64,000 bases of DNA from a virus. Under the pieces are notes generated by a model. It was given only the letters and a program-made list of their open reading frames with translations. It did not search any database and was not told the origin of the DNA. Both the position numbers and the translations under genes were made by a program. Shown one piece after another: positions 45,082-63,549 of the stretch; within the stretch, counting starts at the first letter, position 1, and every line of letters starts with the position of its first letter. The DNA is taken from positions 13,942-77,941 of the IMG/VR virus record IMGVR_UViG_3300021373_003510. The stretch is one strand, 5' to 3'.

Positions 45082-45387
45082 TTACTCGACAACTTTATCA
45101 GCTAAAGTAGCACCATCAGCTTCTGATGTATCGACATCAACTGCCTGTTCCGCAACGGTTGAACCGTCAGGTTGAGGAGCCTTTTGTCTTAGGAATGCTT
45201 CGAGTTTATTTCTCAGCATACCTACACCAGCAAGCTCTTGCCCTTGAAACCCACCACGTTGTGATACTACATCAATAATCTGTAGGATCGTGGAGATGTC
45301 GCCAAGAGTAATATCTACTTCTTGCTGTTGCTGTTGACCACCCATTTGCATAGGTTGGCCTTGCATTGCTTCATTCATATTAATCAC
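45082..45387 (-). CDS. Hypothetical protein
   Basis: 101-aa ORF overlapping the gp45 stop; IIDVVSQRGGFQGQEL core. Confidence 0.7.
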   Translation of the reverse strand: MINMNEAMQGQPMQMGGQQQQQEVDITLGDISTILQIIDVVSQRGGFQGQELAGVGMLRNKLEAFLRQKAPQPDGSTVAEQAVDVDTSEADGATLADKVVE

Positions 45388-46046
45388 CTTTTATTATAAG
45401 TCGACTTTGAATCAATTGCCACATAATATGTGACGCCTTCTCCCTTAAATTCTGAGATACCTTTTGAACAAAGAGTAACCTCATAATCTAAAGGCATTAG
45501 TTTCAAGTTATCAGTTTTAATAATAATCTTGAACTCATCGTCAGTCTCCCCGATTTCAACGCCAAAGTCATCTGCGCCTTCGTTCGTACTGTCGATTGCT
45601 TTCAGATAACATTTGCCACTTTCGCCAACAAATGCGATCTCTGAAAATTGTAATACCCCTGCTGCCTTCAATACAGAAGACAAATCGCCGTTACTCACAT
45701 TGACAACTACATCAGCCGAAGGGATAGTGATATCCTTTTCAGGTGGAGTGTGGATCATTGAGAGATCAGCATAAACGTATTTGGTTCTACGCTTACCTTC
45801 CGAGATAATAAAGTATTTATCAAAAAACTCTACATCTGGATCATTATAAAGAGATAAAATTGATAAAAATCTCGATAGGTCATAAACACATGCATCTGAT
45901 GGAATTACATCAGGGATGTCCGCTATCGCGATCAATGTTTTCTCTGGAGTTATGGTCTTAAGAACTGAACCTTCTTTCAACAAGATTGACTTATTGATAG
46001 TGGTAAAGCTTTTAAGTACCGTCATAGTTTCGTTAGAAAATTTCAT
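45384..46046 (-). CDS. gp45: Sliding clamp gp45
   Basis: MKFSNETMTVLKSFTTINKSIL; YDLSRFLSILSL; position before gp44/62. Confidence 0.92.
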   Translation of the reverse strand: MKFSNETMTVLKSFTTINKSILLKEGSVLKTITPEKTLIAIADIPDVIPSDACVYDLSRFLSILSLYNDPDVEFFDKYFIISEGKRRTKYVYADLSMIHTPPEKDITIPSADVVVNVSNGDLSSVLKAAGVLQFSEIAFVGESGKCYLKAIDSTNEGADDFGVEIGETDDEFKIIIKTDNLKLMPLDYEVTLCSKGISEFKGEGVTYYVAIDSKSTYNKR

Positions 46047-46079: not shown

Positions 46080-46108
46080 ATTATATACCAATTACTTGGA
46101 CTTGTCAA
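46080..46108 (-). promoter_or_regulatory. Sigma70-type promoter (gp45)
   Basis: TTGACA-N17-TATAAT, exact. Confidence 0.85.
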
Positions 46109-46961
46109 TAGGATTGTAAGCTTTCTTTTTAGATTTATCATCTGCAGTTGCAGTTACTCCCAGTGACCCTAGGCTTCCCATGTCACCCTTAAAGATATAA
46201 GAACCAACATGGTTAATTTTCATCCAAGGACACATCGTTACTGATAATCCAGCTGCACGAGCCATTTTACAGAAAAAGTAATCTTCGGACAGATACCTTT
46301 TTGATTCTGGGTCAATCACACAATCAAAGAAGGCATGTATTTCTCGAGAACCATCAAATTGGTCGTTACGAATATGGTCAGGCAAATATGATAACTCAGG
46401 ATATGCTTCTCTGTACTTTTCTAAAGCATCTCTTGTAATTAACATAAATCCAGTTCCACCTTCGGAAACCTCAACAGGTTCTGAGAGCTTAAATTGTTTT
46501 ATTCCTTTTACAGGATTAAAGACAAAATCTGATATGTATTTTTCTAGGTCAAAAGGATTCTCTACACCAATACCTTGCTGTGCAGCAACAGAAACCTTTT
46601 CCCATGCAATTGTTTTCTTTGGATATGGACCACATACAATATCATACTTATCTGGGTCTGATATTTGTAATGCAACTAATGCTAATGCATCTCTTGGATC
46701 AAATCCAATATCCGAATCAATGAATAATAAATGAGAACAATCGGAACGAAGAAATTCGTCTACAATATAATTTCTTGCTCTTTGAACAAGACTCTCATTA
46801 AATAAAAAATAATATTTCATTGGAATCTTATGTGCTGCGCATAACATACTTAAATCATTTGTTGACTTTGTATATATGCCTGCGCATTGACCACCATACA
46901 TTGGTGTGCCAACGAATATTTTTTGCTTTGCTAAATCTTCTGTTTTTACTTCAAGCTTCAT
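46092..46961 (-). CDS. GT-A fold glycosyltransferase-like protein
   Basis: IFVGTPMYGG; ESLVQRARN; LLFIDSDIGF (DxD); GTGFMLI; LSEDYFFC; HVG. Confidence 0.78.
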   Translation of the reverse strand: MKLEVKTEDLAKQKIFVGTPMYGGQCAGIYTKSTNDLSMLCAAHKIPMKYYFLFNESLVQRARNYIVDEFLRSDCSHLLFIDSDIGFDPRDALALVALQISDPDKYDIVCGPYPKKTIAWEKVSVAAQQGIGVENPFDLEKYISDFVFNPVKGIKQFKLSEPVEVSEGGTGFMLITRDALEKYREAYPELSYLPDHIRNDQFDGSREIHAFFDCVIDPESKRYLSEDYFFCKMARAAGLSVTMCPWMKINHVGSYIFKGDMGSLGSLGVTATADDKSKKKAYNPIDKSK

Positions 46962-47596
46962 ACTTTAATTTGCTCCATATCGTTTTCGGCTCTAACAATA
47001 CTCTGCAGTCTTAATACATCTGCAAGTATATCCCAAGAGCTATCGTGTGCTTTGAATACTGAATCCCACTTCTCATCGTTTTCGCAAGGAGCAAATCCAT
47101 TTTTCTTTAATTCAAAATTAAACTTTGCATCAATGTAAGTTCTTGTATCTCTTACTGACCAGTACTTAAGATGCTGTTCCATGTGTGGTAATTTGTTTTG
47201 TGATTGAAATAGTCGAGACAAAATCATAGGGTCAAAAGTATTTGACCTAGACCACCAGTATTTGATAGTAGGTGCCTCAATTAAAAAATCAGTGAATTGT
47301 TTTACAAAATCAGAAACTGATAAATCAGAACTCTTAGGAGCAATGTTTCTTCTTACTTCTTTAGATTGCTCATTCCAAAATGCCAGTGTATTAGGATCTA
47401 TTTCCCAACCGTATTTTTGTACTTGTTCTTTTACATCAAACTTGAACTTCCTACACTTGCTTATATCTGCCAAAGTGTATGGATCGTTAGACGTCATCTT
47501 ATCCCAATTGAATACCATTGCTGATATATCAATGACAGCACATTTATTAACGTCCTGTCCCATTGTTTCAAAATCGATGATTAAGTCATGTCGCAT
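46958..47596 (-). CDS. DexA-like 3'-5' exonuclease (DEDDh)
   Basis: IIDFETMG; WSRSNTFD; RDTRT; HDSSWD. Confidence 0.8.
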   Translation of the reverse strand: MRHDLIIDFETMGQDVNKCAVIDISAMVFNWDKMTSNDPYTLADISKCRKFKFDVKEQVQKYGWEIDPNTLAFWNEQSKEVRRNIAPKSSDLSVSDFVKQFTDFLIEAPTIKYWWSRSNTFDPMILSRLFQSQNKLPHMEQHLKYWSVRDTRTYIDAKFNFELKKNGFAPCENDEKWDSVFKAHDSSWDILADVLRLQSIVRAENDMEQIKV

Positions 47597-47619
47597 AATT
47601 TTTTCCTATTCAATGTACC

Positions 47620-47648
47620 ATTATACAACAATACACCATGAATGTCAA
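47620..47648 (-). promoter_or_regulatory. Sigma70-type promoter (dexA-like gene)
   Basis: TTGACA-N17-TATAAT, exact. Confidence 0.85.
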
Positions 47649-47652
47649 TGGT

Positions 47653-48876
47653 TTATCCAAAGAATTCTTCGAGATTTGGAGTTGTGTCTTTTCCATTTGG
47701 ATCATACTCCATAAGTTGTTTTAAGTTATTTTGTCTTAAATAAGTTGTATCAGAAAGCTCAAGATCTCCATTCAAAAACTTACCAATTTCTAAATGCATA
47801 TCTCTTGATGTAGGTACAGGACAATTCTGAGCAATATGATTCATCTTCTTTAATCCATCAAGTAACTCAAAGTCTTCCGGGAATCCCATCATATGTAATG
47901 CTTCACGAATTGTTAAAGACCTTTCTTCAGTAGGATGAATTGTATCAACCATATTACGACCAATCACTGCATTCATATATTCACCAAAGACGTGTACTGA
48001 ACCATCCCATACACCTTTACCGTCTGCATACTTTTTAATTGCATGGTCAGAATACTTAATACCTTTTTCATGTCCTGTCTTATGGAACCATTCGTTAGCT
48101 TCTTTCATCCAACCTTTTTTATTTACATAATTCAGAGTTGTCTTAACGCCTTCTTCAATCATCAGTTCACGAATATCGCGATTTGTTTTTGTTTTAATAA
48201 ATGTATAGTAAGGTTCTTCAGGTACGTTCTTATTAATAATCAAATCTTGATGTAACGCATCTTCAGGAATCTCTTGAAGATATTCAGCAAAGTCCTTTCT
48301 TGGTCGATTATAATAATTCATAACTGGTGCAGATTCTGATTTCCAACCAATCGCAAATGATCTGTCTCTACCTTGAGGAACACCATGAAATCTTGTTGAT
48401 GTTTTAAATAATGTTAATGAGTATCCGCGTTCTTTACAAATTTCATATAACTTGTTTGCGACAGGACGACCTTTATTTGTATATAGTGCAGGAGCATTTT
48501 CAACAATGACTACCTTTGCTCCAAGAACATCAATACCATTCTCAAAGACCATATACATAAAGTCGTTCTTTGCACAACCTGGTCCTTTTGATTCTGTTGT
48601 CGTTCCTGTATTTAATTGCGATAAAGCAGCACAAGGTGGAGTACCTGTAACTACATCAACCTTTTTAATTTTAGGATTCTCTGAATCTAACAAGACATAA
48701 GGAATATCACGTCCCAATGTATTTTGCTGATAATTTACATAATGCCCATCGTTAGCTTCAAAACCACCAAAAGAATATATTGCTTCGGGTGGTTTACCAA
48801 ATGCTTTTTCTGCGCCTAATGCTTGTCCACCAATTAATGGAATTAGTGGTGCCCACGTTATTTCTTTTTTACTCAT
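47653..48876 (-). CDS. DNA cytosine-C5 methyltransferase-fold protein with atypical SAM-binding motifs
   Basis: Motif IV GTPPC, VI VENA, VIII QGRDR, IX RSLTIREALHMMGFPEDF; motif I reads LIPLIGG. Confidence 0.8.
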   Translation of the reverse strand: MSKKEITWAPLIPLIGGQALGAEKAFGKPPEAIYSFGGFEANDGHYVNYQQNTLGRDIPYVLLDSENPKIKKVDVVTGTPPCAALSQLNTGTTTESKGPGCAKNDFMYMVFENGIDVLGAKVVIVENAPALYTNKGRPVANKLYEICKERGYSLTLFKTSTRFHGVPQGRDRSFAIGWKSESAPVMNYYNRPRKDFAEYLQEIPEDALHQDLIINKNVPEEPYYTFIKTKTNRDIRELMIEEGVKTTLNYVNKKGWMKEANEWFHKTGHEKGIKYSDHAIKKYADGKGVWDGSVHVFGEYMNAVIGRNMVDTIHPTEERSLTIREALHMMGFPEDFELLDGLKKMNHIAQNCPVPTSRDMHLEIGKFLNGDLELSDTTYLRQNNLKQLMEYDPNGKDTTPNLEEFFG

Positions 48877-50132
48877 CCGAAAAAGTCCTCAAGTGTTGCA
48901 GCCGTTTTCTTTTCGTATTGTGATATATCAGTAGCGATATAATCTTTATCAATGGCTGTCATAATTTTGTTATTCAAAAAAGTACCATCATAATATTCAG
49001 GCTTACATATTAATTTACGCAAACCTCTTATTACTGATTCGTACTCATTTTCGTTATTTAATAACCTAGTCATTCTTTCTTTAAATTCAGTAGGAGTTTT
49101 AGGTCTTAAAAAATCTGGTATAGGTAGATGTTTTTGTTCATCATAAGTAGGATGTAAGAATGGTATTACACCAGCATGTACCATTTCAATATACTTTGAA
49201 GTTACCCAACCCTTTGCGATTGGAATAATAAAAGTAAACTTAACATTGTTCATTTTTGCCATTACATCATCAAGATGAATTGAACCTTTAAATCTTGCAT
49301 CGGTTGTTGTATCAGGATGATCCCACTTACCATAAATTTCAACATCTTCATGATCGTCCAATACCCATTCTTTTAATAAGTTATATCTTGAAGGCTTTGC
49401 TTCATTTAATATAACCATGAATGGTACTTTACGATTCAAATTAAACTGTTCTGAATGTTCGTAATTAACACAGAAGCAAGTTTCCATACCTGCATATGTT
49501 GAAGGTACTTTTCTTTCGTATCTGTTTTGATCTTCATAATTGCGAATACTGCTTACTTCGTATTCATAATCGTATTGACCCAAAGACACTGTTGGTAAAT
49601 GGAATATGTCTCTTGATTGATTCATTACATATCGTGGATCATTTACAATTTCAACATAAGGTGGTTGAACTTCATTTAACCAAATAGCAATAGGTGATGT
49701 ATAGTTCTTAGTCATATCAATTACAGATGCAGGTTTACCATCAGTGATACCTTCTTTCAAATGTTTCACTTGAGTAATTTTACCTGGGATAGTAACTGTT
49801 CCAACTTGACCTACCATCATAACTGTATTGTCTAATTGAAATCCTTTCTGATTAAAGTAATCTATAATATGTCGATAGAATCTATCATCGTCTTCATTCT
49901 TTACGCCTTTCCAAATATCAACTACATTATCATACGGAAACAACTCTAATACTTCAGACTCATTTAGAGTACTGAAATCCGAACGACCAATAATATAAAA
50001 GGTCTTATCTGGGTTATTGTTTGCTAATGATATTAGAACTGTAGATGGCTCGTTGTCTCCACCAATAGGAGAGAATCGAGTGCGTTTGAATTTGACCGAC
50101 TTACCGATCTTTGCGAATCCAATGTTTTTCAT
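48873..50132 (-). CDS. GT-B fold DNA glycosyltransferase-like protein (T4 beta-glucosyltransferase-like C-terminal domain)
   Basis: VEIYGKW; TSKYIEMVHAGVIPFLHPTYDEQ; neighbours gp42; clamp-like tail TLEDFFG. Confidence 0.6.
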   Translation of the reverse strand: MKNIGFAKIGKSVKFKRTRFSPIGGDNEPSTVLISLANNNPDKTFYIIGRSDFSTLNESEVLELFPYDNVVDIWKGVKNEDDDRFYRHIIDYFNQKGFQLDNTVMMVGQVGTVTIPGKITQVKHLKEGITDGKPASVIDMTKNYTSPIAIWLNEVQPPYVEIVNDPRYVMNQSRDIFHLPTVSLGQYDYEYEVSSIRNYEDQNRYERKVPSTYAGMETCFCVNYEHSEQFNLNRKVPFMVILNEAKPSRYNLLKEWVLDDHEDVEIYGKWDHPDTTTDARFKGSIHLDDVMAKMNNVKFTFIIPIAKGWVTSKYIEMVHAGVIPFLHPTYDEQKHLPIPDFLRPKTPTEFKERMTRLLNNENEYESVIRGLRKLICKPEYYDGTFLNNKIMTAIDKDYIATDISQYEKKTAATLEDFFG

Positions 50133-50156
50133 AATATAATATATCCGACTATAATT

Positions 50157-50591
50157 TTATTTATTAGATTCCACCACACGTTGTCTAAGCTCGGTTGAGC
50201 TAAACGAGTGCCTTCTTCTATTATAATGAACAGGACATAAACCTTTACCCGTATGTTCTTGATCTTTATATTCTTCACCGACAATTCTTATGTCAGGATT
50301 AATTGTTAAAATCATATCAACGATTTCTTGTTCCGTTGTAAAAGGTATAACCTCGTCAACGTACTTACAAGATGATACCTGTATGTATCTTTCAAAAGGT
50401 GTCTGAACAGGCTTGTTCTTTGCTTCAGGGCGGTCTACTGTTGGGTCAATCAATAATCCAACAATTAAATAATCACACATGGTCTTTGCTTCTTGTAACA
50501 TTACAATATGACCTGCGTGGAATAAATCAAAAGTAGAACATGTAAATCCTACTTTGAAATCTTGAGGTAGTTTCTTTCTATCTAAAAACAT
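50157..50591 (-). CDS. TagD-like cytidylyltransferase
   Basis: STFDLFHAGH; DYLIVGL; YVDEVIP; HSFSSTELR. Confidence 0.88.
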   Translation of the reverse strand: MFLDRKKLPQDFKVGFTCSTFDLFHAGHIVMLQEAKTMCDYLIVGLLIDPTVDRPEAKNKPVQTPFERYIQVSSCKYVDEVIPFTTEQEIVDMILTINPDIRIVGEEYKDQEHTGKGLCPVHYNRRRHSFSSTELRQRVVESNK

Positions 50592-50601
50592 ATTTTCTCC
50601 A

Positions 50602-51633
50602 TTACATAATCTCTGCCATTACATCGTTAACACATTGTATAATAAAATCTTTATCAGGGTGGTACTTATATACACGAATGATTTCTGATGCTACAGTAGT
50701 CCAAACTGATTTCTCATCAAGATTATTATATAAACATAATACCTTTAGAGATTCGTTTTGTAAATCTACAGGATAACGATTAATAATTAAACTTGCCACA
50801 AATTTAGATATATCTAATTGTGTATTTCCAAATGCTGACGGGATAGGATCAATTAAGACTAAATTACAGTCATTAAACAGCATGTTCTTAACACCAAAAT
50901 CTCCATGCGAAAAAGATGGAAACTGATGTGGCAAAGCAACAAGACGATCTACGATATCTTCAAAGGCAGCAATACCTGTTGGCTTAACATGGTTTACAAT
51001 TCTTCCAATATAATCTTCCCATACTAAATCCACGGGAGGATTAGCAATATGCTTCATAGATTCTAATGCATCTTGAATTAATCCAAAAGCCATGTAACGA
51101 TTTTCAATCAAATAGTCTTCTTGATGTTCAATGTACTCCATCGTAATTGTATTTCCAACAACACGATCTATCCTTGGAGTATTAAGTAAACCTTTTGTGT
51201 ATTCAAACCAAGCAGCTGCTTCATGCGCATTATCTGCAGTCTTATGAACAAGTCTACCATCGGTGTAAATATCAGAACCACTTAGTCCGCCTTCTAACTC
51301 TCTTATATCGGCCTCTAAAAATAACTCAGGTGTAATACCTTTGTCATCAATGTAATAGGCTCCAAGAGGTTTATCAAAACTCAGAAGTCCATATTTGACC
51401 TGATGCTTATCTAACCAATGTTCGATCTGAGCTCGGTATTTTTTATCAGCTTCTTCTCGAGTCTTACAAGAAATTGAACCACGAGCAGTGTAAATATCAA
51501 CAAGCCAACCAGAATCAAACAGCTTATTACATTTTTCAATTAAAGGAAGATTAGGTTTTGCTCTTTCCCAATCTCTGTTTGATGTAAATGCTAAAGTGTC
51601 ATCAAAGTCTAAAATGATTCTTTTATTGTACAT
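50602..51633 (-). CDS. Fusion of a HAD phosphatase (EcbF/BcbF-like) and an aminoglycoside/choline-kinase-like domain
   Basis: DFDDTL, YTARG, KP..YYIDDK; then GGLSGS, HGDFGVKN, LIDP. Confidence 0.78.
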   Translation of the reverse strand: MYNKRIILDFDDTLAFTSNRDWERAKPNLPLIEKCNKLFDSGWLVDIYTARGSISCKTREEADKKYRAQIEHWLDKHQVKYGLLSFDKPLGAYYIDDKGITPELFLEADIRELEGGLSGSDIYTDGRLVHKTADNAHEAAAWFEYTKGLLNTPRIDRVVGNTITMEYIEHQEDYLIENRYMAFGLIQDALESMKHIANPPVDLVWEDYIGRIVNHVKPTGIAAFEDIVDRLVALPHQFPSFSHGDFGVKNMLFNDCNLVLIDPIPSAFGNTQLDISKFVASLIINRYPVDLQNESLKVLCLYNNLDEKSVWTTVASEIIRVYKYHPDKDFIIQCVNDVMAEIM

Positions 51634-51639
51634 TGTTTC

Positions 51640-51846
51640 TTAAAATTTGTTTTTGAAGATAACTGAACGAGTTAAACCACCGAACAGATAAGTAAAGTAT
51701 AAGAAGAATGGTACTGCAAGAGCAATTCTAATTGAATCCTTTGTGGCTCCTACCACTTCTCCGAGAGTAATAAGAACAAAAATTACAGCAGTAATTGCTA
51801 ACACTGTTCCTGCACCAAACATAAAGTCTTTTAACATTTCTTTCAT
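51640..51846 (-). CDS. Small membrane protein with two predicted TM helices
   Basis: Two hydrophobic segments; AGGA RBS; first gene after a promoter. Confidence 0.65.
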   Translation of the reverse strand: MKEMLKDFMFGAGTVLAITAVIFVLITLGEVVGATKDSIRIALAVPFFLYFTYLFGGLTRSVIFKNKF

Positions 51847-51876
51847 AATATAGTTTCCTTTAATAAATTAGATACC

Positions 51877-51905
51877 ATTATACCATAGTTACGATCATTT
51901 GTCAA
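51877..51905 (-). promoter_or_regulatory. Sigma70-type promoter (kinase/cytidylyltransferase/GT/MTase operon)
   Basis: TTGACA-N17-TATAAT, exact. Confidence 0.85.
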
Positions 51906-52653
51906 TAGAAAAAATTGACTCAACATCGTAGTGAGGTACTTCTATTTCCTCAACCCAGTTAACTTGTTTATTATAAGGTCTCCATTTATCTCTAACAAAG
52001 TAATCCTCATAACATATAATTTCACCTGGGTATATACTATATAGCCATTTCATCCGTTCGTAATTATCACGAATTTGATTAATGCAGTTTGGAACAGTGA
52101 CTACTCCCATTCCACCTGTTAACATTGGATCATTAGGATCAACTTCAACAATATGTTTTTCGTCTTTACCTAAAAATCCTAAATGAGTTTCTCTTACAAA
52201 CTCATCAGTCATTTTTTTAGCCTGAACTTTGAATCCTGTTTTAGAAAAGTCTCCCCATCTTCTTACAGCAACCCAACTCTTACATGTGGCTTCAAAATCT
52301 CTACGATACAAATAATAAATCTTATCTACTGATTTTAGTATTTCTTTAATCATATAGTCTTCGCGTACTTGCCAAGGCATAATCTTAAAGCAAATTTCAA
52401 CATCAGGTTTACGAAGTTCAGTCATTAAGTTGGCATCACTTTGAATTAGATCGAGTATTTCATACTGCATAATCCCATATTCATTTTGAAGTTTATACCT
52501 AGCAGGAATTGCTCCTACTTTATTTGCTTTCTCATGACTAAACGCTTCACCACCATAAGGTAGTCCGTATTCTTCAGCCTTTTGTAATGTAAAAGTAGTA
52601 CTGCCTGTTCTATAATTACATATGACTGCTACTTTTTTAATGTTTTGTTCCAC
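51895..52653 (-). CDS. PAPS-dependent sulfotransferase-like protein
   Basis: 5'-PSB loop NYRTGSTTF; FKIMP; 3'-PB-like YLYRRDFEATCKSW; CYED. Confidence 0.65.
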   Translation of the reverse strand: MEQNIKKVAVICNYRTGSTTFTLQKAEEYGLPYGGEAFSHEKANKVGAIPARYKLQNEYGIMQYEILDLIQSDANLMTELRKPDVEICFKIMPWQVREDYMIKEILKSVDKIYYLYRRDFEATCKSWVAVRRWGDFSKTGFKVQAKKMTDEFVRETHLGFLGKDEKHIVEVDPNDPMLTGGMGVVTVPNCINQIRDNYERMKWLYSIYPGEIICYEDYFVRDKWRPYNKQVNWVEEIEVPHYDVESIFSIDK

Positions 52654-53089
52654 TCATAAACTCCGTTTCAACACCTGCTTCAGTAAACATACGTTGTGAC
52701 TTGTCAAATGATTCTAACCATTTTTGCGGAATATCATCAGCCGACATAACAATTCTATTTATGCCCACCTGAATAATTCCTTTTGCACAGTCATGACAAA
52801 CTGGTAAACCCCAAACATATAATGTAGAATCCTTTAGAGATATTCCATTAAATGTAGCATTATATATGCAATTCATTTCAGCATGAACAACAAGATCATA
52901 TTTAATAGTTCTATCTATGTATCTTTCAGGACTATCTTCGATTCCTTTTGGAAATCCATTATATCCAGTTGCTAGGATGCGACGGTCTGAGTTAACAGCC
53001 ACCGCACCGATTTGTTTTGAAGGGTCTTTACTCCAAGTTGAGATTTCTTGTGCGACTCTTAAGAATCGTTTATCCCACTTTTCTTGCAT
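52637..53089 (-). CDS. cd: dCMP deaminase
   Basis: WSKDPS; TGYNGFP; HAEMN; PVCHDCAKGIIQ. Confidence 0.93.
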   Translation of the reverse strand: MQEKWDKRFLRVAQEISTWSKDPSKQIGAVAVNSDRRILATGYNGFPKGIEDSPERYIDRTIKYDLVVHAEMNCIYNATFNGISLKDSTLYVWGLPVCHDCAKGIIQVGINRIVMSADDIPQKWLESFDKSQRMFTEAGVETEFMSGTKH

Positions 53090-53744
53090 CTATCAATTCC
53101 TCAACGAAGTTAAAATGTCTTTCATATACATGGAAATTAGAAGCAGTCCAAATTAAATTACCAACTCGTATACCAAGATCATGCGCAAGGTTGGTTTGAA
53201 CATATCTTGCCCAAGCATAATCATTGTTATAACCAAACACTGCATCGTTTGAACGCATTAGGTAATGAGAATCAAGTTCACCATCTCGAACATAAAAAGT
53301 ATTCGCATAGGTACACATAAAGTCATTCATACCGTCTCTTGTGAAATCAACATGCATGCTTGGTCGATTATAAATCATAGTTGCTCTGCGAGAGTTTGGA
53401 TTGTTTTTCAATTCGCGAAGAACATGTTGGTATTGATTACCGTTCTCTTCAGAGTATATACACCAACCATAATTAGAATTGATCTCACCTTCGGTTGAAG
53501 CAATGTCTTTCCAAATTTTTGGAGTTTCACCAGGAATATCATTTACATTCAACGATTGAGACTTATACCATTGTAACTCACGGCCGATATACTCATATGC
53601 AGGTTTGCGAACAATATAATCTTCGTCAGCAAGAAATGTTGCGCCGATGATTTCAATTGTCTTTGCACCTGTTCTATCAATAATGAAATCTTCATCAAGA
53701 TATTTGTCAGTGATAAGTTGTCTTACTAGGTTGATCGTTAGCAT
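53070..53744 (-). CDS. gp42: dCMP hydroxymethyltransferase (thymidylate synthase fold)
   Basis: Close to T4 gp42 as recalled: DRTGAKTIEIIGATF, DIPGETPKIW, GEINSNYGW, DFMCT, MRSNDAVFGYNND (Asp at the dCMP-specificity position). Confidence 0.9.
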   Translation of the reverse strand: MLTINLVRQLITDKYLDEDFIIDRTGAKTIEIIGATFLADEDYIVRKPAYEYIGRELQWYKSQSLNVNDIPGETPKIWKDIASTEGEINSNYGWCIYSEENGNQYQHVLRELKNNPNSRRATMIYNRPSMHVDFTRDGMNDFMCTYANTFYVRDGELDSHYLMRSNDAVFGYNNDYAWARYVQTNLAHDLGIRVGNLIWTASNFHVYERHFNFVEELIDARKVG

Positions 53745-53998
53745 TATATTGTTTCCATTAACGCTTCAATATCCGATACTTCTGCAACTAGGTCAGAAAC
53801 ATTTTGATTATGGAAAGCTCTTGCAGTTTTCCTTAAGATTGATTTTGGGATTTGAACTTCTTCGGCCAAAGCATTGATTGCTTCTTTTTGAAAATCTCTT
53901 TCAGATTCCATTCTTGTAAACGAATTACTCATTTCTTCCATGCAGCCACGAATTCTTTTCTTATCTTCGTCGCTTGTTGGTAATATCACATTAGTCAT
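53744..53998 (-). CDS. dsDNA-binding protein, T4 DsbA-like
   Basis: 84-aa helical protein; ERDFQKEAINALAEEVQIPKSILRKTARAFH pattern. Confidence 0.6.
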   Translation of the reverse strand: MTNVILPTSDEDKKRIRGCMEEMSNSFTRMESERDFQKEAINALAEEVQIPKSILRKTARAFHNQNVSDLVAEVSDIEALMETI

Positions 53999-54341
53999 TT
54001 TTTATTCTCCTATTGAATATATCGGCTCTAGGATTTTGGCCTGGTATCATCTGACGACAATACGCAACAAAAAAACTAGAATAGTTTATAAGATCTTTTG
54101 CTGAATCTTCAAGAGATTCAAAGTTTGGTTCGTAATCATCACCTTGCATTGCTTCCATTACAGATTTCATACGCAACATTTTTGCATGCATAATATCATG
54201 AATCGTTGTGACACCATTCGGATAATAGTCTGCTTGTTGCACAGTGCTGTTTGGATTTTGATAATCACGAGATTTTTGAGTTTGTAAGTCAATGCATTCT
54301 TGTAATACATTAACGCTTTCTCGATTTACTTTTTTAGTCAT
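53991..54341 (-). CDS. Nucleotide-modification-associated helical protein (DUF1599/Nmad-like)
   Basis: LQECIDLQTQKSRDY...FESLEDSAKDLINYSSF; adjacent to gp42. Confidence 0.65.
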   Translation of the reverse strand: MTKKVNRESVNVLQECIDLQTQKSRDYQNPNSTVQQADYYPNGVTTIHDIMHAKMLRMKSVMEAMQGDDYEPNFESLEDSAKDLINYSSFFVAYCRQMIPGQNPRADIFNRRIKND

Positions 54342-54370: not shown

Positions 54371-54399
54371 ATTATAACAAAATTGACACTGCATGTCAA
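54371..54399 (-). promoter_or_regulatory. Sigma70-type promoter of the gp42 operon, containing a TTGACA-N5-TGTCAA palindrome
   Basis: TTGACA-N17-TATAAT, exact; inverted repeat at 54383-54399. Confidence 0.85.
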
Positions 54400-54875
54400 T
54401 AGCTAATTTCATACTTTAGAAATAACTCTGTAGCCTCAGTGCATTTGTTGTCGGTTGAATTGTAACTTGCTGACCAACGAATGTTATCAGGACAGTTACC
54501 TTTTGAATTTGGAGTATCTAAAAACTCGAACATGACATCATGGGGTATCATAGATATACGATACTTATTGTTTTCCAAAGAAGAAGCATCTACTAACGCA
54601 AACCAATCACAACCATTTCGCTTACACATTAAACTCCAAGCACCTAGTTTGCCTTCGGTTGGTTTGTTTGCTGTTTTTACTTCAATTCGACCAGGATATC
54701 TTGTTTTACCAAGAACGTCGAATTTACCGTTTACTGATTCGCCTTCGGTGAGACTGACGATTTGCGATTCACCTATAGAACCTACAAGCGATTTATACAA
54801 ATCGTCAGTACCACATAACTTGCCATCTTTATGAAGACTAATTGCTTCGTTGAGCAATATCGTCAAATTATCCAT
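54396..54875 (-). CDS. PD-(D/E)XK restriction-endonuclease-like protein
   Basis: GSIGE...KFDVLG...RIEVKT catalytic pattern. Confidence 0.55.
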   Translation of the reverse strand: MDNLTILLNEAISLHKDGKLCGTDDLYKSLVGSIGESQIVSLTEGESVNGKFDVLGKTRYPGRIEVKTANKPTEGKLGAWSLMCKRNGCDWFALVDASSLENNKYRISMIPHDVMFEFLDTPNSKGNCPDNIRWSASYNSTDNKCTEATELFLKYEISY

Positions 54876-55005: not shown

Positions 55006-55350
55006 TCATCCTAATGCCACCAAGGATTCTATTTTACAAGATCCCATACTTTTATTTCGGGTTCCTGCATCTAAAAAAGAAATTCTTGTTCCTTCTTTAA
55101 TTCTAGTGCCGTGGGCATAGAGTCCTAGATTATCGTATTCGGAGTTTATAGTTCTATCTATATACTTCTTTACTGGACAATGTTGTATGAATTCACCTTC
55201 ATATACATTTGTTTTTGTATGGAAAAATATTTTTCCTGTCTCAGTAATGTTTATATCTTGTATAGATTTTTGCGAGATGTGGTCTGCTGCCATCGCGGCA
55301 GTAGAGAACAACAGGCTAAACATTACTGATAAAGTTGCTACCTTTATCAT
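55006..55350 (-). CDS. Exported/periplasmic hypothetical protein
   Basis: Signal peptide ending AMA; two Cys; AGGAG RBS. Confidence 0.7.
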   Translation of the reverse strand: MIKVATLSVMFSLLFSTAAMAADHISQKSIQDINITETGKIFFHTKTNVYEGEFIQHCPVKKYIDRTINSEYDNLGLYAHGTRIKEGTRISFLDAGTRNKSMGSCKIESLVALG

Positions 55351-55680: not shown

Positions 55681-56094
55681 TTATTCTCCTTTTAATTTTG
55701 GTAGGATACCATGATTACCTTCATGAGATGGAGCCGTCCATCCTTCAGGTTTCATAAGATCAGGTAATCCTAACGGGTTCGGCCTTCCTTCCTTTACACC
55801 AGGTTCTTTGGCCATATTTGCTTCGAGAACAGAGTCCCAAGCTTTATAAGGGTCGACTCCAAAGGCATCGAGAGTACCGATTGCCACTACACAAAGGTCA
55901 ACTAAACCATCAACGATTTCTTCGGAGTCGATAACTTTTTGAGCATTTCTTGTTTCAGTTAATTCCTCTTCCAAGAAATCTATTCTAAAGCGCAAGAATG
56001 CCTTTAATTGATTTAAGTCTGCGTTTTTAATCCAATCATGCGTTTGGTATTTGGATTGCATTTCATTAATGTCTTTTACCCAATCTTTACTCAT
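55681..56094 (-). CDS. MazG/HisE-superfamily NTP pyrophosphohydrolase; probable start at MSKDW
   Basis: FLEEELTE...EIVDGLVDLCVVAIG; ANMAK; KPEGW. Confidence 0.82.
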   Translation of the reverse strand: MSKDWVKDINEMQSKYQTHDWIKNADLNQLKAFLRFRIDFLEEELTETRNAQKVIDSEEIVDGLVDLCVVAIGTLDAFGVDPYKAWDSVLEANMAKEPGVKEGRPNPLGLPDLMKPEGWTAPSHEGNHGILPKLKGE

Positions 56095-56395
56095 CAGGAT
56101 ATCCTTGTGTAATATAAACGCCAATCATACCAATTTCGCCTTCAGTTAACATGCCTGCTGTTGGCCACATCATTGCAGATTGTGGTCCTACAACTTCTTT
56201 ATTTTTATATGCCAACAATTTAGAAATAATTTCATCAGCAGTTTGTCCTTGAAGTTTAGGTCCTAAACCACCTTGACCTTGAGGTCCGTGGCATGCGGCA
56301 CAAGTATTCATTGTTTGACGAATACTCGCAAACCTATCTTCTGCTACTGCATTTGTTGATAATACCAATGTCAATGCGATAATAAACTTGTTCAT
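56087..56395 (-). CDS. Class I c-type cytochrome (c553-like) with a signal peptide
   Basis: CAACHG haem motif; GPKLQGQ; distal Met in SAMMW. Confidence 0.9.
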   Translation of the reverse strand: MNKFIIALTLVLSTNAVAEDRFASIRQTMNTCAACHGPQGQGGLGPKLQGQTADEIISKLLAYKNKEVVGPQSAMMWPTAGMLTEGEIGMIGVYITQGYPDE

Positions 56396-56607
56396 ATTAA
56401 TTCCCTTAGTTCCATAAAGCCACCAATTGATTCTTCATCAATTGTAATTTGAGGAAAAGTTCTTGCTGTTGGAAACTTTTCAAAAAACTCTTCCTGTGTA
56501 TAATCTACGTTGAGCTGTAGATATTTAAAATCTTTCTTTTTCTGTTCACAAAGTTGTTTTGCCATATTACAATATGCGCAATTGTCTTTTCCGTATATCT
56601 CTATCAT
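56392..56607 (-). CDS. Glutaredoxin
   Basis: CAYC; TFPQI; IGGF. Confidence 0.92.
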   Translation of the reverse strand: MIEIYGKDNCAYCNMAKQLCEQKKKDFKYLQLNVDYTQEEFFEKFPTARTFPQITIDEESIGGFMELRELI

Positions 56608-56951: not shown

Positions 56952-59504
56952 TTAACTGAAGAAATCTTCAATTGTATTTACCTTTTCTGCTGACCATCCA
57001 ACCGCATCTAGGATCGACTGAATCGGATTCAAGAATACTTTATCAAACTGTAGCTCATAGTCAATATATTCATGAAGACCAAGTTGTTTAGGTAATAGGC
57101 CAGGAACCGATATAACATTTTCTCTTATCGGATTTGGCACTTTAAGATAGAGAAATTTGACTTTGTCTCCACCTTGTATTGTCTCAAACTTTTTATCAAG
57201 TCCTTTCTCTTTAAGGAAATGATTATACATAATTGCACCACGAACATGCATAGGACAACCTTTTCTATATAAGGAAGTCTTGTCTTGATACTTTTTAATA
57301 TTATCAGTGCCTGAAGTTTTTGCGATAGCAACAGGATCAAGCTTGCGAAACTCTTCGCGGAAGTCTTGAATAAAGTCTTGAGTTGTCTTTTCATCGGTAT
57401 TCATAATAACCTCAAAACATTCCTTAAGCTTTTCTCGACAGACCTCAGGAGTCGAAGATCTTACTGATTCCAAACCTGTAACTGATATCTTAGGAGTATC
57501 ATAATGAACTCCTTCAGAATTCAATGTATTTAGGATATACCTTTTCTTAGCAACAAAGATACCGCGGTGAGCAATCTTTTCACGTTTCATCACCATTGCA
57601 TTACGATAAGTACCTAAATCAGCGGCAAGCTTTTCGTAACCGTCTTCAATGATTTGCTCAATTTTTGTTGAGCATACTCTATCAAGGAACTCTTCACCTT
57701 TACTTTTATCAATATCAGTTGTACCAAATACTTCAGTAATCAGAGGACCGAAGTCAACATAGATAGAGTCAGTATCAATATAAATGATATAGTCAGTATC
57801 ATCAGTTCCAAGAATCTTGTTCAAATAATCGTTTACAGATTTTTGAGCATAACGAATAGATAACTGACCACTTGTTGTAATTGCTTCGGCCATTTCGTTA
57901 ATATAGTATAAGAAGTAGATGTTTGCCGTTGCTCCATACAAACTGTTCATAGCAATCTTAATTGACATTTGCGAGTTGTGAAGCTGATTGATTTCACGTT
58001 TCAGTCTTTTTAGTTCAGTACTATCTGTTTCAATTTCAAACTGCTGTTCAGCTGCAATCATTTGCTTTTTGATAACAGAACGGTTATTATAGTATTCATC
58101 AATGATTTCAGGAATGATTCCAAGTTTCTTGTTTGAGAAACAAACACCGTTAGCGGCAACCGATACATCTTTACGATCATTCTGATATTCACCTTTTAGA
58201 ACCATATCCTGAGTTACGTATTCACGATCGTCAGGCATATATGTTTCAGGTGACATATTATATTGTAGCATCAAATGTGGATATAGAGAGTTAAGGTCAA
58301 AAGATACAACCCAAGGATGCATTCCAACTTTAGGATCTTTTACATAACCACCTACGAGATCTCCTGCTCGCATTCCTGGGCCACCTTTAAGTGGAGGAAC
58401 GATCTTGTCTTTAATCAACCTACGATAAATGGTTGATTCCCAAATGCCAACAGTTCCAAAGGCGTCTCCGTAATTAACTCCACCATCATAAGCAACGGTC
58501 ATAACCAAAGCAAGCAATCCTGTTTCTTCTTCAAGTCGAGCAATCAACTGAGTATCTTTCAAATTATAGTCAAGATACAGTTGTGGATTTTCATCATATA
58601 AACCTGTAAGAGAACCATATTCTGAATAGTCAATCTTTTTCTCACCAAGAACAACATAAGCAATATGATCCAACCTATATGATTCTTGAGGACCGTACTT
58701 ATAACCAAATTTCTTGAAAGCATCCATATAGTCAATAACAGCAATACCCATAAGTGAATATGTTGAGTTGACTTTACCAAATACTTCTCGACTTTGCTTT
58801 TTAATTGATTTGTGTGGAGATAGACGTTTAGCAGTTTCTTCTCCAAGCAAACGAATAATCCTCGTGACAATATACATTATGTCAAAGTACTCAACGTTCC
58901 AACCTGTTACAATATCAGGATAGTCGGTTGTCCATAATTTAACAAAGTACTGAAGTAGCTGGACTTCAGAATCAAACTTGACATATTGAATCTTGTCTTG
59001 AGGAATGTCCGTTACCGTTTGTGTCTTGTCGTAATCTTTTTGGCCAAGCAGATAGTAAATATCAGATCTTGAACTATGATAAGCAATTGATGTAATAGGG
59101 TTGTCTGCTTCGTCAATATTAGCAAAGCCATCTCTGATGTCAACCTCAATATCAAACGAAACAATATTCACATGACTTACATCGTATGAAATCTTTTCAG
59201 GATATTCTTCTTGTATGAATTGCGTAATATAATTTGTTGAGCCAAAGATCTTCATACCGTGAACACCTTTGTATTCCTCAATAAAGTTTTTGGCTTCGCG
59301 CATATCGCCGAACTTGTGTGGAGATAATGGTAGGTTACCATCTGTTAAAGACTTATAACCTTCTTCTCCTGCTTTCGGCGTATGAACATATAGAGTTGGT
59401 TGAAACGGTACACGATACGAGAAACGCTTTCCGTTTTCGTAACCACGATGTAGGATATTATTTCCGTACCGCTCAACAGATGTATAGAATTTTGTCAATG
59501 CCAT
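56952..59504 (-). CDS. gp43: Family B DNA polymerase gp43
   Basis: ExoI FDIEV; TGWNVEYFD; SFDLNSLYP; KIAMNSLYG; YIDTDS; KKRY. Confidence 0.97.
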   Translation of the reverse strand: MALTKFYTSVERYGNNILHRGYENGKRFSYRVPFQPTLYVHTPKAGEEGYKSLTDGNLPLSPHKFGDMREAKNFIEEYKGVHGMKIFGSTNYITQFIQEEYPEKISYDVSHVNIVSFDIEVDIRDGFANIDEADNPITSIAYHSSRSDIYYLLGQKDYDKTQTVTDIPQDKIQYVKFDSEVQLLQYFVKLWTTDYPDIVTGWNVEYFDIMYIVTRIIRLLGEETAKRLSPHKSIKKQSREVFGKVNSTYSLMGIAVIDYMDAFKKFGYKYGPQESYRLDHIAYVVLGEKKIDYSEYGSLTGLYDENPQLYLDYNLKDTQLIARLEEETGLLALVMTVAYDGGVNYGDAFGTVGIWESTIYRRLIKDKIVPPLKGGPGMRAGDLVGGYVKDPKVGMHPWVVSFDLNSLYPHLMLQYNMSPETYMPDDREYVTQDMVLKGEYQNDRKDVSVAANGVCFSNKKLGIIPEIIDEYYNNRSVIKKQMIAAEQQFEIETDSTELKRLKREINQLHNSQMSIKIAMNSLYGATANIYFLYYINEMAEAITTSGQLSIRYAQKSVNDYLNKILGTDDTDYIIYIDTDSIYVDFGPLITEVFGTTDIDKSKGEEFLDRVCSTKIEQIIEDGYEKLAADLGTYRNAMVMKREKIAHRGIFVAKKRYILNTLNSEGVHYDTPKISVTGLESVRSSTPEVCREKLKECFEVIMNTDEKTTQDFIQDFREEFRKLDPVAIAKTSGTDNIKKYQDKTSLYRKGCPMHVRGAIMYNHFLKEKGLDKKFETIQGGDKVKFLYLKVPNPIRENVISVPGLLPKQLGLHEYIDYELQFDKVFLNPIQSILDAVGWSAEKVNTIEDFFS

Positions 59505-63337: not shown

Positions 63338-63549
63338 TATTCTTTAACTCCAAACTTGATGTAATTGTACCAAAGTCTTTCATGTCCATAATACAATACA
63401 AATTTAATAACTAGGTCCGCCAAAAAGACGGCTCCCACAGCCTTCTGAGGTAGGCCAAAATATAACGCGATAAGAGCTGTAGTACAGGATGCAATAATTC
63501 TCCATGTAATAGCTTTACCTAAATGTCTTAACTTTGTGACTTCTGCCAT
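63337..63549 (-). CDS. DUF2061-like small membrane protein
   Basis: RHLGKAITWRIIA...LYYGHERLW. Confidence 0.78.
   Translation of the reverse strand: MAEVTKLRHLGKAITWRIIASCTTALIALYFGLPQKAVGAVFLADLVIKFVLYYGHERLWYNYIKFGVKE

What the first reader, a model, noticed from the sequence alone, without database searches (positions are those of the whole stretch)
46092..54341. Putative cytosine hypermodification pathway built around dCMP hydroxymethylase
Seen: within 8 kb and co-oriented, an Nmad-like gene, gp42, dCMP deaminase, a sulfotransferase, a HAD-phosphatase/kinase fusion, a TagD-like cytidylyltransferase, a GT-B transferase, a C5-MTase-fold protein, DexA and a GT-A transferase, running into gp45. 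Known: T4 makes hmdCMP with gp42 and glucosylates DNA using host UDP-glucose. Inference: this phage makes its own activated donor (kinase, then CDP-alditol or CDP-sugar) and decorates hmC in several steps, potentially giving a base unlike glucosyl-hmC as defence against restriction and CRISPR. Some of these genes could instead modify virion proteins or the host surface.
Basis: partly seen in the sequence, partly recalled or inferred. Interest (0 to 1): 0.85.

Follow-up and report, generated by a model that had tools for sequence, protein, structure and literature searches.

The report
Phage hydroxymethylcytosine sugar-decoration gene cluster
An uncultured marine T4-like phage carries a tight block of early genes that should replace cytosine with hydroxymethylcytosine, make its own activated sugar (probably a heptose) and attach it to its DNA; a matching enzyme kit was shown to do this in 2023, so this is a new variant, with two unexplained extra enzymes.

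Summary

- **Cytosine step:** the thymidylate-synthase homologue is a T4-type dCMP hydroxymethylase (E 4e-73 to T4 gp42). Its active-site signature is that of 5hmdCMP synthases, not of the RB69-type 5-hydroxy-dCMP synthases.
- **DNA as target:** the GT-B protein and the C5-methylase-like protein end in the same acidic-hydrophobic tail as the phage DNA polymerase. This suggests tethering to the sliding clamp.
- **Conservation:** the block is kept in 80 viral contigs. Its donor/transferase slot is swapped for other DNA-glycosylation cassettes in relatives.

This scan reached the same reading on other genomes. No chemistry has been measured.

The parts
56952..59504 (-). DNA polymerase (gp43-like, 850 aa) ending in ...NTIEDFFS
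   Evidence: 44% identity to T4-like cyanophage polymerases. Its C-terminal tail is one of only three such tails among 292 ORFs of the window.
55681..56124 (-). MazG-like NTP pyrophosphatase, candidate dCTPase (inferred)
   Evidence: PF01503 8.4e-9; phrog_671 2e-21. Kept upstream of gp42 in related loci.
54371..54399 (-). Perfect sigma-70 consensus promoter before the Nmad1-like/DsbA/gp42/deaminase/252-aa unit
   Evidence: 12 of 12 match. Ten such sites in the window against 0.05 expected.
53991..54341 (-). 116-aa protein, weakly Nmad1 (DUF1599)-like
   Evidence: PF07659 E 0.03, sub-threshold; phrog_18404 3.9e-13; no PDB match.
53744..53998 (-). DsbA-like small DNA-binding/transcription protein (84 aa)
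   Evidence: phrog_639 1.4e-12; PF11126 4.6e-4, sub-threshold.
53070..53744 (-). dCMP hydroxymethylase (gp42 type, 224 aa)
   Evidence: E 4e-73 to T4 1B5E. Signature D141/C144/D167/D175, equivalent to E. coli ThyA L143D, C146, D169 kept, N177D (PMC13326640).
52637..53089 (-). dCMP deaminase (150 aa)
   Evidence: PF00383 1.7e-19.
51895..52653 (-). Sulfotransferase-like protein (252 aa), accessory
51877..51905 (-). Perfect sigma-70 consensus promoter before the donor/transferase unit
51640..51846 (-). 68-aa hydrophobic peptide, function unknown
   Evidence: ORF; kept in 35 related loci; no family match.
50602..51633 (-). HAD phosphatase / APH-like kinase fusion (343 aa)
   Evidence: TIGR01689 3.7e-11; PDB 1xpj 7e-10 and 9iqw 4e-8; APH E 0.03 here and 2.7e-4 in the L009 homologue; HGDFGVKN motif.
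50157..50591 (-). HxGH nucleotidyltransferase (144 aa)
   Evidence: PF01467 4e-15; TIGR02199 2.6e-21 and TIGR01518 5e-14, both below cut-off; PDB ECT 4e-23 and TagD 2.8e-14.
48873..50132 (-). GT-B DNA glycosyltransferase-like protein (419 aa) ending in ...ATLEDFFG
47653..48876 (-). C5-cytosine methyltransferase-fold protein (407 aa) ending in ...PNLEEFFG; role unknown
   Evidence: PF00145 1.5e-22. Motifs PPC, ENAP, PQxRxR and IAQN(C/V)P conserved; motif I reads IPLIGG. Tail.
47620..47648 (-). Perfect sigma-70 consensus promoter before DexA/GT-A
46958..47596 (-). DexA-like 3'-5' exonuclease (212 aa)
   Evidence: PF16473 2.7e-20; phrog_255 6e-35.
46092..46961 (-). GT-A-like glycosyltransferase (289 aa)
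   Evidence: phrog_1574 5e-56. Invariant QRARNY, D82-x-D84 and E226-D227-Y228. Atlas 0.98 to a nucleotide-diphospho-sugar transferase cluster. Pfam matches only sub-threshold.
46080..46108 (-). Perfect sigma-70 consensus promoter before gp45
45384..46046 (-). gp45 sliding clamp (220 aa)
   Evidence: PF09116 1.7e-14.

Best explanation
This is an early-transcribed cytosine-hypermodification cassette of a marine T4-like phage.

- **Step 1, strongly supported by sequence.** A gp42-type synthase turns dCMP into 5-hydroxymethyl-dCMP. A dCMP deaminase and MazG-like pyrophosphatases shape the nucleotide pool, so the polymerase builds hmC DNA.
- **Step 2, inferred from architecture and from a published reconstitution of the same kind of kit.** The APH-like kinase phosphorylates a host sugar phosphate, most likely D-glycero-D-manno-heptose 7-phosphate, at C1. 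The fused HAD phosphatase removes the other phosphate. The HxGH nucleotidyltransferase then makes an NDP-sugar.
- **Step 3, fold shown, substrate inferred.** The T4 beta-glucosyltransferase-like GT-B enzyme transfers that sugar to the hydroxyl of hmC in duplex DNA. It is probably brought to new DNA by a polymerase-like C-terminal tail that binds the gp45 clamp.
- **Step 4, inferred.** The GT-A enzyme adds or extends a sugar. In this sub-lineage a sulfotransferase-like enzyme may further decorate the glycan.

The clamp-tailed C5-methylase look-alike also acts on DNA at the fork, but its reaction is not known. The result would be DNA resistant to restriction and other nucleases.
For: - **gp42.** E 4e-73 to T4 dCMP hydroxymethylase. 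Residues equivalent to E. coli ThyA L143, C146, D169 and N177 read D, C, D, D. All 42 full-length homologues in related loci read the same. PMC13326640 gives N177D as the dCMP marker, L143D/E as the hydroxymethyl marker and D169N as the 5-hydroxy-dCMP marker; here D169 is kept.
- **Kit.** Pyle et al. report that a HAD/APH bifunctional enzyme, a CTP transferase and a GT-B DNA GT were all needed for Hep- and di-Hep-5hmC. Their annotation HMMs TIGR01689 and TIGR02199 are the ones hit here. Their GT53 (429 aa) matches the same PDB entries (3mbo, 1bgt, 2jjm) as this 419-aa protein.
- **Clamp tail.** Only 3 of 292 ORFs end in [LIVMF][ED][EDS]FF-like tails: the polymerase, the GT-B protein and the MTase-like protein. 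The tail is conserved in homologues. In T4, similar acidic-hydrophobic C-termini of gp43, gp55 and gp33 bind gp45 (PMC2988020).
- **Synteny.** 80 loci keep the order. The same slot holds a T4-type DNA alpha-glucosyltransferase (PF11440, 2.3e-77) in one relative. Another relative carries a TET-associated GT with an epimerase. A similar kit sits beside a TS homologue in Enterococcus phage Planchet and Pseudoalteromonas phage XG4.
- **Timing.** Six perfect sigma-70 promoters in the gene gaps point to early expression together with the replication genes.
Against: - No chemistry exists for this phage, which is uncultured.
- The nucleotidyltransferase is closer by sequence to ethanolamine-phosphate and glycerol-3-phosphate cytidylyltransferases than to any heptose enzyme of known structure. 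Its TIGR02199 score is far below that model's cut-off.
- No heptose isomerase (SIS_2) was found in the phage genomes, so the precursor must come from an unknown host.
- No gp1-type dNMP kinase was found, so the hmdCMP kinase step is unassigned.
- The GT-A assignment rests on motifs and sub-threshold matches.
- The sulfotransferase-like family also occurs in contigs without recognisable modification genes.
Confidence: 0.7

Rival explanations
1. The donor is not a sugar nucleotide but a CDP-activated alcohol phosphate (CDP-glycerol, CDP-ribitol, CDP-ethanolamine or CDP-choline). It would be made Kennedy/TagD-style by the APH/choline-kinase-like kinase and the cytidylyltransferase. The GT-B-fold enzyme would then lay a phosphodiester-linked group on hmC, in the manner of teichoic-acid synthesis.
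For: The best solved-structure sequence matches of the 144-aa enzyme are ethanolamine-phosphate cytidylyltransferase (4e-23), TagD (2.8e-14) and choline-phosphate cytidylyltransferase. The kinase is of the APH/choline-kinase type. The HAD domain matches a 'capsule biosynthesis phosphatase' family.
Against: The GT-B model matches sugar transferases, with T4 beta-GT first, and not TagF-type phosphotransferases. There is no Glyphos_transf match. The published kit of the same architecture gave heptose adducts. A fused phosphatase has an obvious role in a bisphosphate sugar route and none in a Kennedy route. In relatives the nucleotidyltransferase is replaced by an RmlA-like sugar-1-phosphate type.
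Confidence: 0.12
2. The sugar genes do not act on DNA. They would glycosylate virion proteins or remodel the host surface, and they would sit beside gp42 only because this region of T4-like genomes collects accessory genes.
For: GT-A and GT-B folds are generic. Homologues of the GT-A protein occur in phages that are not known to have modified DNA. The region is clearly plastic. Another follow-up in this scan judged a heptose cassette in a different phage to serve fibre proteins (a lead only).
Against: The best structural matches of the GT-B model are the three known kinds of phage DNA glycosyltransferase. The GT-B protein carries the polymerase-type clamp tail. Relatives hold bona fide DNA GT families (AGT, TAGT) in the same region, AGT in the very same slot. 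The genes are driven by early promoters together with replication genes. The order is kept in 80 loci.
Confidence: 0.06
3. The cluster glycosylates hmC as in the best explanation. The 252-aa protein, however, is a P-loop-kinase-fold enzyme, or a sulfotransferase with an unrelated small-molecule or nucleotide target, and takes no part in the DNA adduct.
Against: The nucleotide loop reads RTGST and not the Walker A GK[ST]. An Arg and a Ser are conserved at the spacing of the 3'-phosphate site. Where the neighbours are recognisable, the gene sits directly beside three different DNA-glycosylation cassettes.
Confidence: 0.45

Closest known systems
'Contig 53' subclass III gene cluster giving heptosyl- and di-heptosyl-5hmC (Pyle, Lund, O'Toole, Saleh; bioRxiv 10.1101/2023.12.21.572611)
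   Same: HAD/APH-like bifunctional enzyme, CTP_transf_like nucleotidyltransferase and a GT-B DNA glycosyltransferase of about 420 aa with T4 beta-GT, BshA and 2jjm as structural matches, next to a C5-methyltransferase gene. The same TIGR01689 and TIGR02199 matches appear.
   Different: There, 5hmC is made after replication by a C5-MT plus a TET-like dioxygenase at MT sites. Here it is made before replication by a gp42-type synthase, and no Tet_JBP gene was found. This window adds a GT-A enzyme, a sulfotransferase-like protein and clamp-type tails. Sequence-level orthology could not be tested because no sequences are held.
T-even glucosyl-hmC system (T4 gp42, gp56, gp1, cd, alpha- and beta-glucosyltransferases)
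   Same: gp42 homologue with the full active-site signature, dCMP deaminase, a candidate NTP pyrophosphatase, and a GT-B enzyme whose model is closest to T4 beta-GT.
   Different: T4 uses host UDP-glucose and encodes no donor pathway. The GT-B protein here matches no T4 glucosyltransferase Pfam family. No gp1-type kinase was found. There are extra MTase-like, GT-A and sulfotransferase-like genes.
Arabinosyl-5-hydroxycytosine system of RB69, DLP3 and HY126 (Lee et al., NAR 2026, PMC13326640)
   Different: Those synthases carry Asn at the ThyA D169 position and make 5-hydroxy-dCMP. Here, and in all 42 relatives, the residue is Asp as in T4. The donor enzymes also differ.
SAM-dependent C5-cytosine DNA methyltransferases (PF00145; M.HhaI, DNMT1)
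   Same: Fold and catalytic motifs IV (PPC), VI (ENAP), VIII (PQxRxR) and IX/X-like. Recruitment by a clamp tail would parallel DNMT1-PCNA (that parallel is from general knowledge).
   Different: Motif I reads IPLIGG and not FxGxG, invariantly across the family. The phage's cytosines should already carry a C5 substituent. The NCBIfam dcm score (59 bits) is far below the cut-off of 100.65.
Stf0-type carbohydrate sulfotransferases (PDB 1TEX)
   Different: No detectable sequence-family membership. The margin over P-loop kinases is small. No sulfated DNA modification is known (general knowledge).

Membership tests
T4-type 5-hydroxymethyl-dCMP synthase (dCMP hydroxymethylase, gp42) | Close sequence similarity to T4 gp42 over the whole thymidylate-synthase fold | tested here: met
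   E 4e-73, 249 bits, residues 14-215 aligned to 1B5E; true thymidylate synthases score E 1e-14 or worse.
T4-type 5-hydroxymethyl-dCMP synthase (dCMP hydroxymethylase, gp42) | Catalytic Cys, plus Asp at the ThyA N177 position (dCMP specificity) and an acidic residue at the L143 position | tested here: met
   C144, D175 and D141 align with T4 C148, D179 and D145. The criteria come from PMC13326640.
T4-type 5-hydroxymethyl-dCMP synthase (dCMP hydroxymethylase, gp42) | Asp kept at the ThyA D169 position (Asn marks 5-hydroxy-dCMP synthases) | tested here: met
   D167 in MRSND, as in T4. 42 of 42 full-length relatives read D-C-D-D.
T4-type 5-hydroxymethyl-dCMP synthase (dCMP hydroxymethylase, gp42) | Folate-dependent hydroxymethylation of dCMP | not testable with these tools
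   Needs an enzyme assay.
Contig-53-type heptosyl-5hmC kit (Pyle et al. 2023) | HAD/APH bifunctional enzyme, CTP_transf_like enzyme and GT-B DNA GT encoded together | tested here: met
   Adjacent genes at 50602-51633, 50157-50591 and 48873-50132.
Contig-53-type heptosyl-5hmC kit (Pyle et al. 2023) | Sequence homology to the tested contig-53 proteins | not testable with these tools
   The supplement holds no sequences or contig names.
Contig-53-type heptosyl-5hmC kit (Pyle et al. 2023) | 5hmC supplied after replication by a C5-MT plus a 5mYOX (TET-like) enzyme | tested here: not met
   No Tet_JBP match in the contig or in two near-complete relatives, although the search's control genomes did not ring. 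A gp42-type synthase is present.
Contig-53-type heptosyl-5hmC kit (Pyle et al. 2023) | Product is heptose on 5hmC | not testable with these tools
   Needs LC-MS of nucleosides.
T4 DNA beta-glucosyltransferase (GT63) | GT-B fold superposable on T4 BGT over its full length | tested here: met
T4 DNA beta-glucosyltransferase (GT63) | Sequence-family membership | tested here: not met
   Only a weak Glyco_trans_1_2 match (E 0.003) in Pfam; 10-12% identity in the structural alignments.
C5-cytosine DNA methyltransferase (PF00145) | Pfam match above the gathering score, with catalytic motifs IV, VI and VIII | tested here: met
   80.9 bits against a cut-off of 22. PPC, ENAP and PQxRxR are invariant or nearly so in 22 sequences.
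C5-cytosine DNA methyltransferase (PF00145) | SAM-binding motif I, FxGxG | tested here: not met
   Reads IPLIGG, with L14, G16 and G17 invariant across the family.
C5-cytosine DNA methyltransferase (PF00145) | SAM binding and methyl transfer to C5 | not testable with these tools
   Needs biochemistry.
PAPS-dependent sulfotransferase (Stf0-like) | Sulfotransferase fold | tested here: inconclusive
PAPS-dependent sulfotransferase (Stf0-like) | 5'-phosphosulfate loop and 3'-phosphate Arg/Ser pair | tested here: met
   R15 invariant and S18 nearly so in NYRTGST. R117 nearly invariant and S126 invariant in 23 sequences. Matching these to the known motifs rests on inspection and general knowledge.
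PAPS-dependent sulfotransferase (Stf0-like) | HMM membership in a sulfotransferase family | tested here: not met
   No Pfam match for any of 23 family members, and no PDB match for the family profile.
JGT/TarP-like GT-A DNA glycosyltransferases (Pyle et al.) | R...DxD...EDY/F active-site motifs | tested here: met
   R61/R63, D82-x-D84 and E226-D227-Y228 are invariant in 11 sequences.
JGT/TarP-like GT-A DNA glycosyltransferases (Pyle et al.) | GT-A fold matching TarP/JGT | not tested
A profile search of the PDB found nothing. The Atlas points to a nucleotide-diphospho-sugar transferase cluster.
Teichoic-acid-type CDP-alditol route (TagD plus TagF) | TagD-family cytidylyltransferase | tested here: inconclusive
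   TagD E 2.8e-14 in the PDB, but TIGR01518 scores 52 bits against a cut-off of 165.
Teichoic-acid-type CDP-alditol route (TagD plus TagF) | TagF-like CDP-alditol phosphotransferase | tested here: inconclusive
   No Glyphos_transf match. TagF-type chains are not among the listed structural matches, which does not exclude them.

The most novel reading that the evidence does not exclude
In this sub-lineage the glycan on hydroxymethylcytosine, or the hydroxymethyl group itself, is sulfated by the 252-aa Stf0-like enzyme. That would be the first sulfated DNA base. The clamp-tethered C5-methylase look-alike, with its rebuilt cofactor pocket, would carry out a non-methylating reaction on C5-substituted cytosine at the replication fork.
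Probability: 0.12. Interest if true: 0.85.

Novelty: new variant of a known kind. Interest (0 to 1): 0.45.

Why it matters
Sugar coats on phage DNA decide which restriction, CRISPR and other nuclease defences can cut it. This cluster shows the published heptose-type kit wired to T4-style pre-replicative hmC synthesis in an abundant group of uncultured marine phages. It also shows the donor/transferase slot being swapped among at least four cassette types, which is the pattern expected of an arms race. Three points are directly testable and not yet described in the papers read here. The first is polymerase-like clamp tails on DNA-modifying enzymes. The second is a conserved methylase look-alike in DNA that should have no free C5. 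The third is a possible sulfotransferase beside DNA glycosyltransferases.

Tried and rejected
- A megablast of the 8.25-kb region against 50,697 phage records found nothing. The phage has no close cultured relative; its polymerase is under 60% identical to all of them.
- Tet_JBP, the gp1-type dNMP kinase PF21448, the thymidylate-kinase-like gene that precedes gp42 in relative L148 and the heptose isomerase family SIS_2 were not found in the contig or in three larger relatives. The contig is only about 36% of a genome, and the Tet_JBP control did not ring.
- Profile searches of the 252-aa family against the PDB and Pfam gave only noise. Foldseek alone was ambiguous.
- The idea that the APS-kinase-like gene (63528-63962) and the HxGH gene (62909-63337) feed the 252-aa protein with PAPS is not supported by co-occurrence. 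Both complete relatives have the kinase and lack the 252-aa family.
- A GT-A profile search of the PDB found nothing.
- The 116-aa and 147-aa proteins are not detectably related to each other.
- The supplement of Pyle et al. holds no sequences.
Context for the 252-aa family was taken from the search for related loci.

Full report
**Source and layout.** The window is the last 64 kb of a 77.9-kb IMG/VR viral contig estimated to be about 36% complete. It belongs to an uncultured, low-GC (about 35%) T4-like myovirus. Its DNA polymerase is at most 44.5% identical to that of any phage record, the nearest being marine cyanomyoviruses. All genes of the finding lie on the minus strand. In the order of transcription they are:

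| Window coordinates | Size | Product |
|---|---|---|
| 53991-54341 | 116 aa | Unassigned, weakly Nmad1-like |
| 53744-53998 | 84 aa | DsbA-like |
| 53070-53744 | 224 aa | Thymidylate-synthase homologue (gp42 type) |
| 52637-53089 | 150 aa | dCMP deaminase |
| 51895-52653 | 252 aa | Sulfotransferase-like |
| 51640-51846 | 68 aa | Hydrophobic peptide |
| 50602-51633 | 343 aa | HAD/kinase fusion |
| 50157-50591 | 144 aa | Nucleotidyltransferase |
| 48873-50132 | 419 aa | GT-B protein |
| 47653-48876 | 407 aa | C5-methylase-fold protein |
| 46958-47596 | 212 aa | DexA-like exonuclease |
| 46092-46961 | 289 aa | GT-A-like protein |
| 45384-46046 | 220 aa | gp45 |

Gaps between neighbouring genes run from a 20-nt overlap to 56 nt.

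**Check of the observation.**
- Pfam, NCBIfam, PHROGs and PDB sequence searches confirm the deaminase, the cytidylyltransferase-like enzyme, the C5-methylase fold, the exonuclease and gp45.
- The HAD half of the fusion matches the 'capsule biosynthesis phosphatase' family TIGR01689 (3.7e-11) and PDB 1xpj and 9iqw.
- The kinase half carries HGDFGVKN. It has only a weak APH match here (E 0.03) and a better one in a 60%-identical homologue (2.7e-4).
- 'Nmad-like' rests on a sub-threshold DUF1599/Nmad1 match (E 0.03).
Otherwise the list is right.

**Which modified cytosine.** This matters because Lee et al. (PMC13326640) showed that the 'gp42' of RB69-like phages makes 5-hydroxy-dCMP, not 5-hydroxymethyl-dCMP, and that Asn at the E. 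coli ThyA D169 position marks that activity. The window's protein aligns with T4 dCMP hydroxymethylase at E 4e-73. It reads D141, C144, D167 and D175 at the positions of ThyA L143, C146, D169 and N177, exactly as T4 does (D145, C148, D171, D179). All 42 full-length homologues in related loci have the same D-C-D-D signature. The base built into the DNA is therefore predicted to be hmC. Two MazG-like or Nmad-like small proteins upstream are candidate dCTP-clearing enzymes. No gp1-type dNMP kinase was found, which leaves one step unassigned.

**The donor and transferase kit.** A literature search led to Pyle, Lund, O'Toole and Saleh (bioRxiv 10.1101/2023.12.21.572611). In their 'contig 53', a HAD-like/APH-like bifunctional enzyme, a CTP transferase and a GT-B DNA glycosyltransferase were all required in E. 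coli to make heptosyl- and di-heptosyl-5hmC. Four points of agreement:
- The three adjacent genes here have the same architecture.
- The HMMs that paper uses to label such genes (TIGR01689, TIGR02199) are the ones hit here.
- I folded the 419-aa protein on a 30-sequence alignment (pLDDT 88.3). Foldseek puts T4 DNA beta-glucosyltransferase first (7.6e-9), followed by BshA 3mbo and 2jjm. Those are the same entries listed for their 429-aa GT53.

The most economical chemistry mirrors the bacterial NDP-heptose route (from general knowledge). A kinase puts a phosphate on C1 of a host heptose 7-phosphate, the HAD phosphatase removes the 7-phosphate, and the nucleotidyltransferase activates the 1-phosphate. 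This part is inference. The nucleotidyltransferase is in fact closest in the PDB to ethanolamine-phosphate and glycerol-phosphate cytidylyltransferases, and no heptose isomerase is phage-encoded. A CDP-alcohol donor therefore remains a minor rival.

**Evidence that DNA is the target.** Among 292 stop-to-stop ORFs of 50 aa or more in the window, exactly three end in an acidic-hydrophobic ...[LI]E[DE]FF[GS] tail. They are the DNA polymerase (NTIEDFFS), the GT-B enzyme (ATLEDFFG) and the methylase-like protein (PNLEEFFG). The tail is conserved in the homologues of both enzymes. In T4 the similar C-termini of gp43, gp55 and gp33 are the ligands of the gp45 clamp and are interchangeable (PMC2988020). 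I infer that both enzymes ride the clamp behind the fork.

Ten perfect TTGACA-N17-TATAAT promoters lie in the window, all on the coding strand, against 0.05 expected. Six of them sit in the gene gaps of this region. The cluster is therefore early, like T4's nucleotide and replication genes.

**Comparative genomics.**
- The GT-B gene has relatives at 62-95% identity in 80 IMG/VR loci, and the whole order from gp42 to gp45 is kept.
- The core is gp42, deaminase, a donor module, GT-B, MTase-like, DexA, GT-A and gp45.
- The donor module varies. In more distant relatives, in Pseudoalteromonas phage XG4 and in Enterococcus phage Planchet, it is a stand-alone HAD plus an RmlA-like nucleotidyltransferase fused to an APH-like kinase. 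The logic is the same and the parts differ.
- In one relative the slot holds a T4-type DNA alpha-glucosyltransferase (PF11440, 2.3e-77).
- In another relative, without gp42 in the region, a TET-associated glycosyltransferase sits with an epimerase and a UDP-glucose dehydrogenase.

This cassette swapping argues strongly that the slot encodes DNA glycosylation, and that the adduct is under diversifying pressure.

**The GT-A protein.** It has invariant QRARNY, DxD and EDY motifs, which fit the R...DDD...EDY/F signature that Pyle et al. describe for JGT/TarP-like DNA transferases. The support is limited to motifs, a large PHROG of unknown function, sub-threshold Pfam matches and an Atlas lead. I could not fold it.

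**The 252-aa protein.**
- It matches no HMM.
- Its nucleotide loop reads RTGST and not GK[ST], and an Arg...Ser pair is conserved. I rate 'sulfotransferase' at about two in three.
- It is an accessory gene, present in 8 of the 80 loci.
- Where its neighbours can be recognised, it sits beside three different DNA-glycosylation cassettes. Many family members lie in unrecognisable contexts.
- The suggested PAPS route through the APS-kinase-like gene at 63528-63962 is not supported. Two complete relatives keep that kinase and lack the 252-aa family. That kinase could equally be the missing nucleotide kinase.

**The methylase look-alike.** It keeps motifs IV, VI and VIII but has IPLIGG for motif I, invariantly. 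It accompanies the GT-B gene in all 80 loci. In DNA whose cytosines already carry a C5 group, an ordinary methylation is hard to picture. I cannot say what it does, and the scan's earlier follow-ups on relatives reached the same impasse.

**Verdict.** The pathway type was reconstituted in 2023, and that paper's survey already noted GT-B contigs with thymidylate-synthase homologues, dCMP deaminase, APH, methyltransferase and gp45 annotations. This scan has also reported the same cluster type on other genomes. It is a new variant of a known kind. The clamp tails, the methylase look-alike and the sulfotransferase-like gene are its open, testable parts.

Noticed in passing
window 42608-63229, minus strand: Ten perfect TTGACA-N17-TATAAT sites, all on the coding strand and in gene gaps, against 0.05 expected by shuffling. 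This reads as a set of consensus early promoters for the host sigma-70 polymerase.
   Followed up: partly
window 62909-63962: An APS-kinase-like P-loop kinase (144 aa), a DUF2061 peptide (70 aa) and a small HxGH protein (142 aa) lie in a row. The kinase and the HxGH protein match the two halves of one PHROG family (phrog_10255). The kinase is kept in two complete relatives that lack the sulfotransferase-like gene. It may be the missing hmdCMP kinase, not a PAPS enzyme.
   Followed up: partly
L148:7843-9075; L107:5959-9620; L070:11250-12383; L001:4238-5344: Related phages carry other DNA-glycosylation cassettes at or near the same slot. One has a T4-type alpha-glucosyltransferase. One has a TET-associated GT with an epimerase and a UDP-glucose dehydrogenase. 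Two have a second GT-B-like gene of about 370 aa between the GT-B and MTase-like genes.
   Followed up: partly
L087 (Enterococcus phage Planchet, OX422066.1 50620-57148): A Gram-positive siphovirus has a parallel block: nucleotide kinase, TS homologue, dUTPase, a small HAD annotated 'polynucleotide kinase', an RmlA-like NT/kinase fusion annotated 'glycosyltransferase', a GT-B homologue (29% identity), RNase H and another GT. Two of the record's product names look wrong.
   Followed up: partly
L009:8632-9549: In many close relatives an extra 305-aa ORF with no family match sits between the HAD/kinase fusion and the nucleotidyltransferase. In those relatives the fusion is only about 60% identical while its neighbours are about 90% identical, which suggests a different donor.
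   Followed up: no
window 54396-54875 and 55006-55350: Two ORFs (159 and 114 aa) have no match in Pfam, NCBIfam or PHROGs. The first has its own perfect promoter and is kept in 14 related loci.
   Followed up: no
window 56087-56607 and 62340-62912: Host-like auxiliary genes sit among the replication genes: a cytochrome c-like protein, a glutaredoxin and a peptide deformylase.
   Followed up: no
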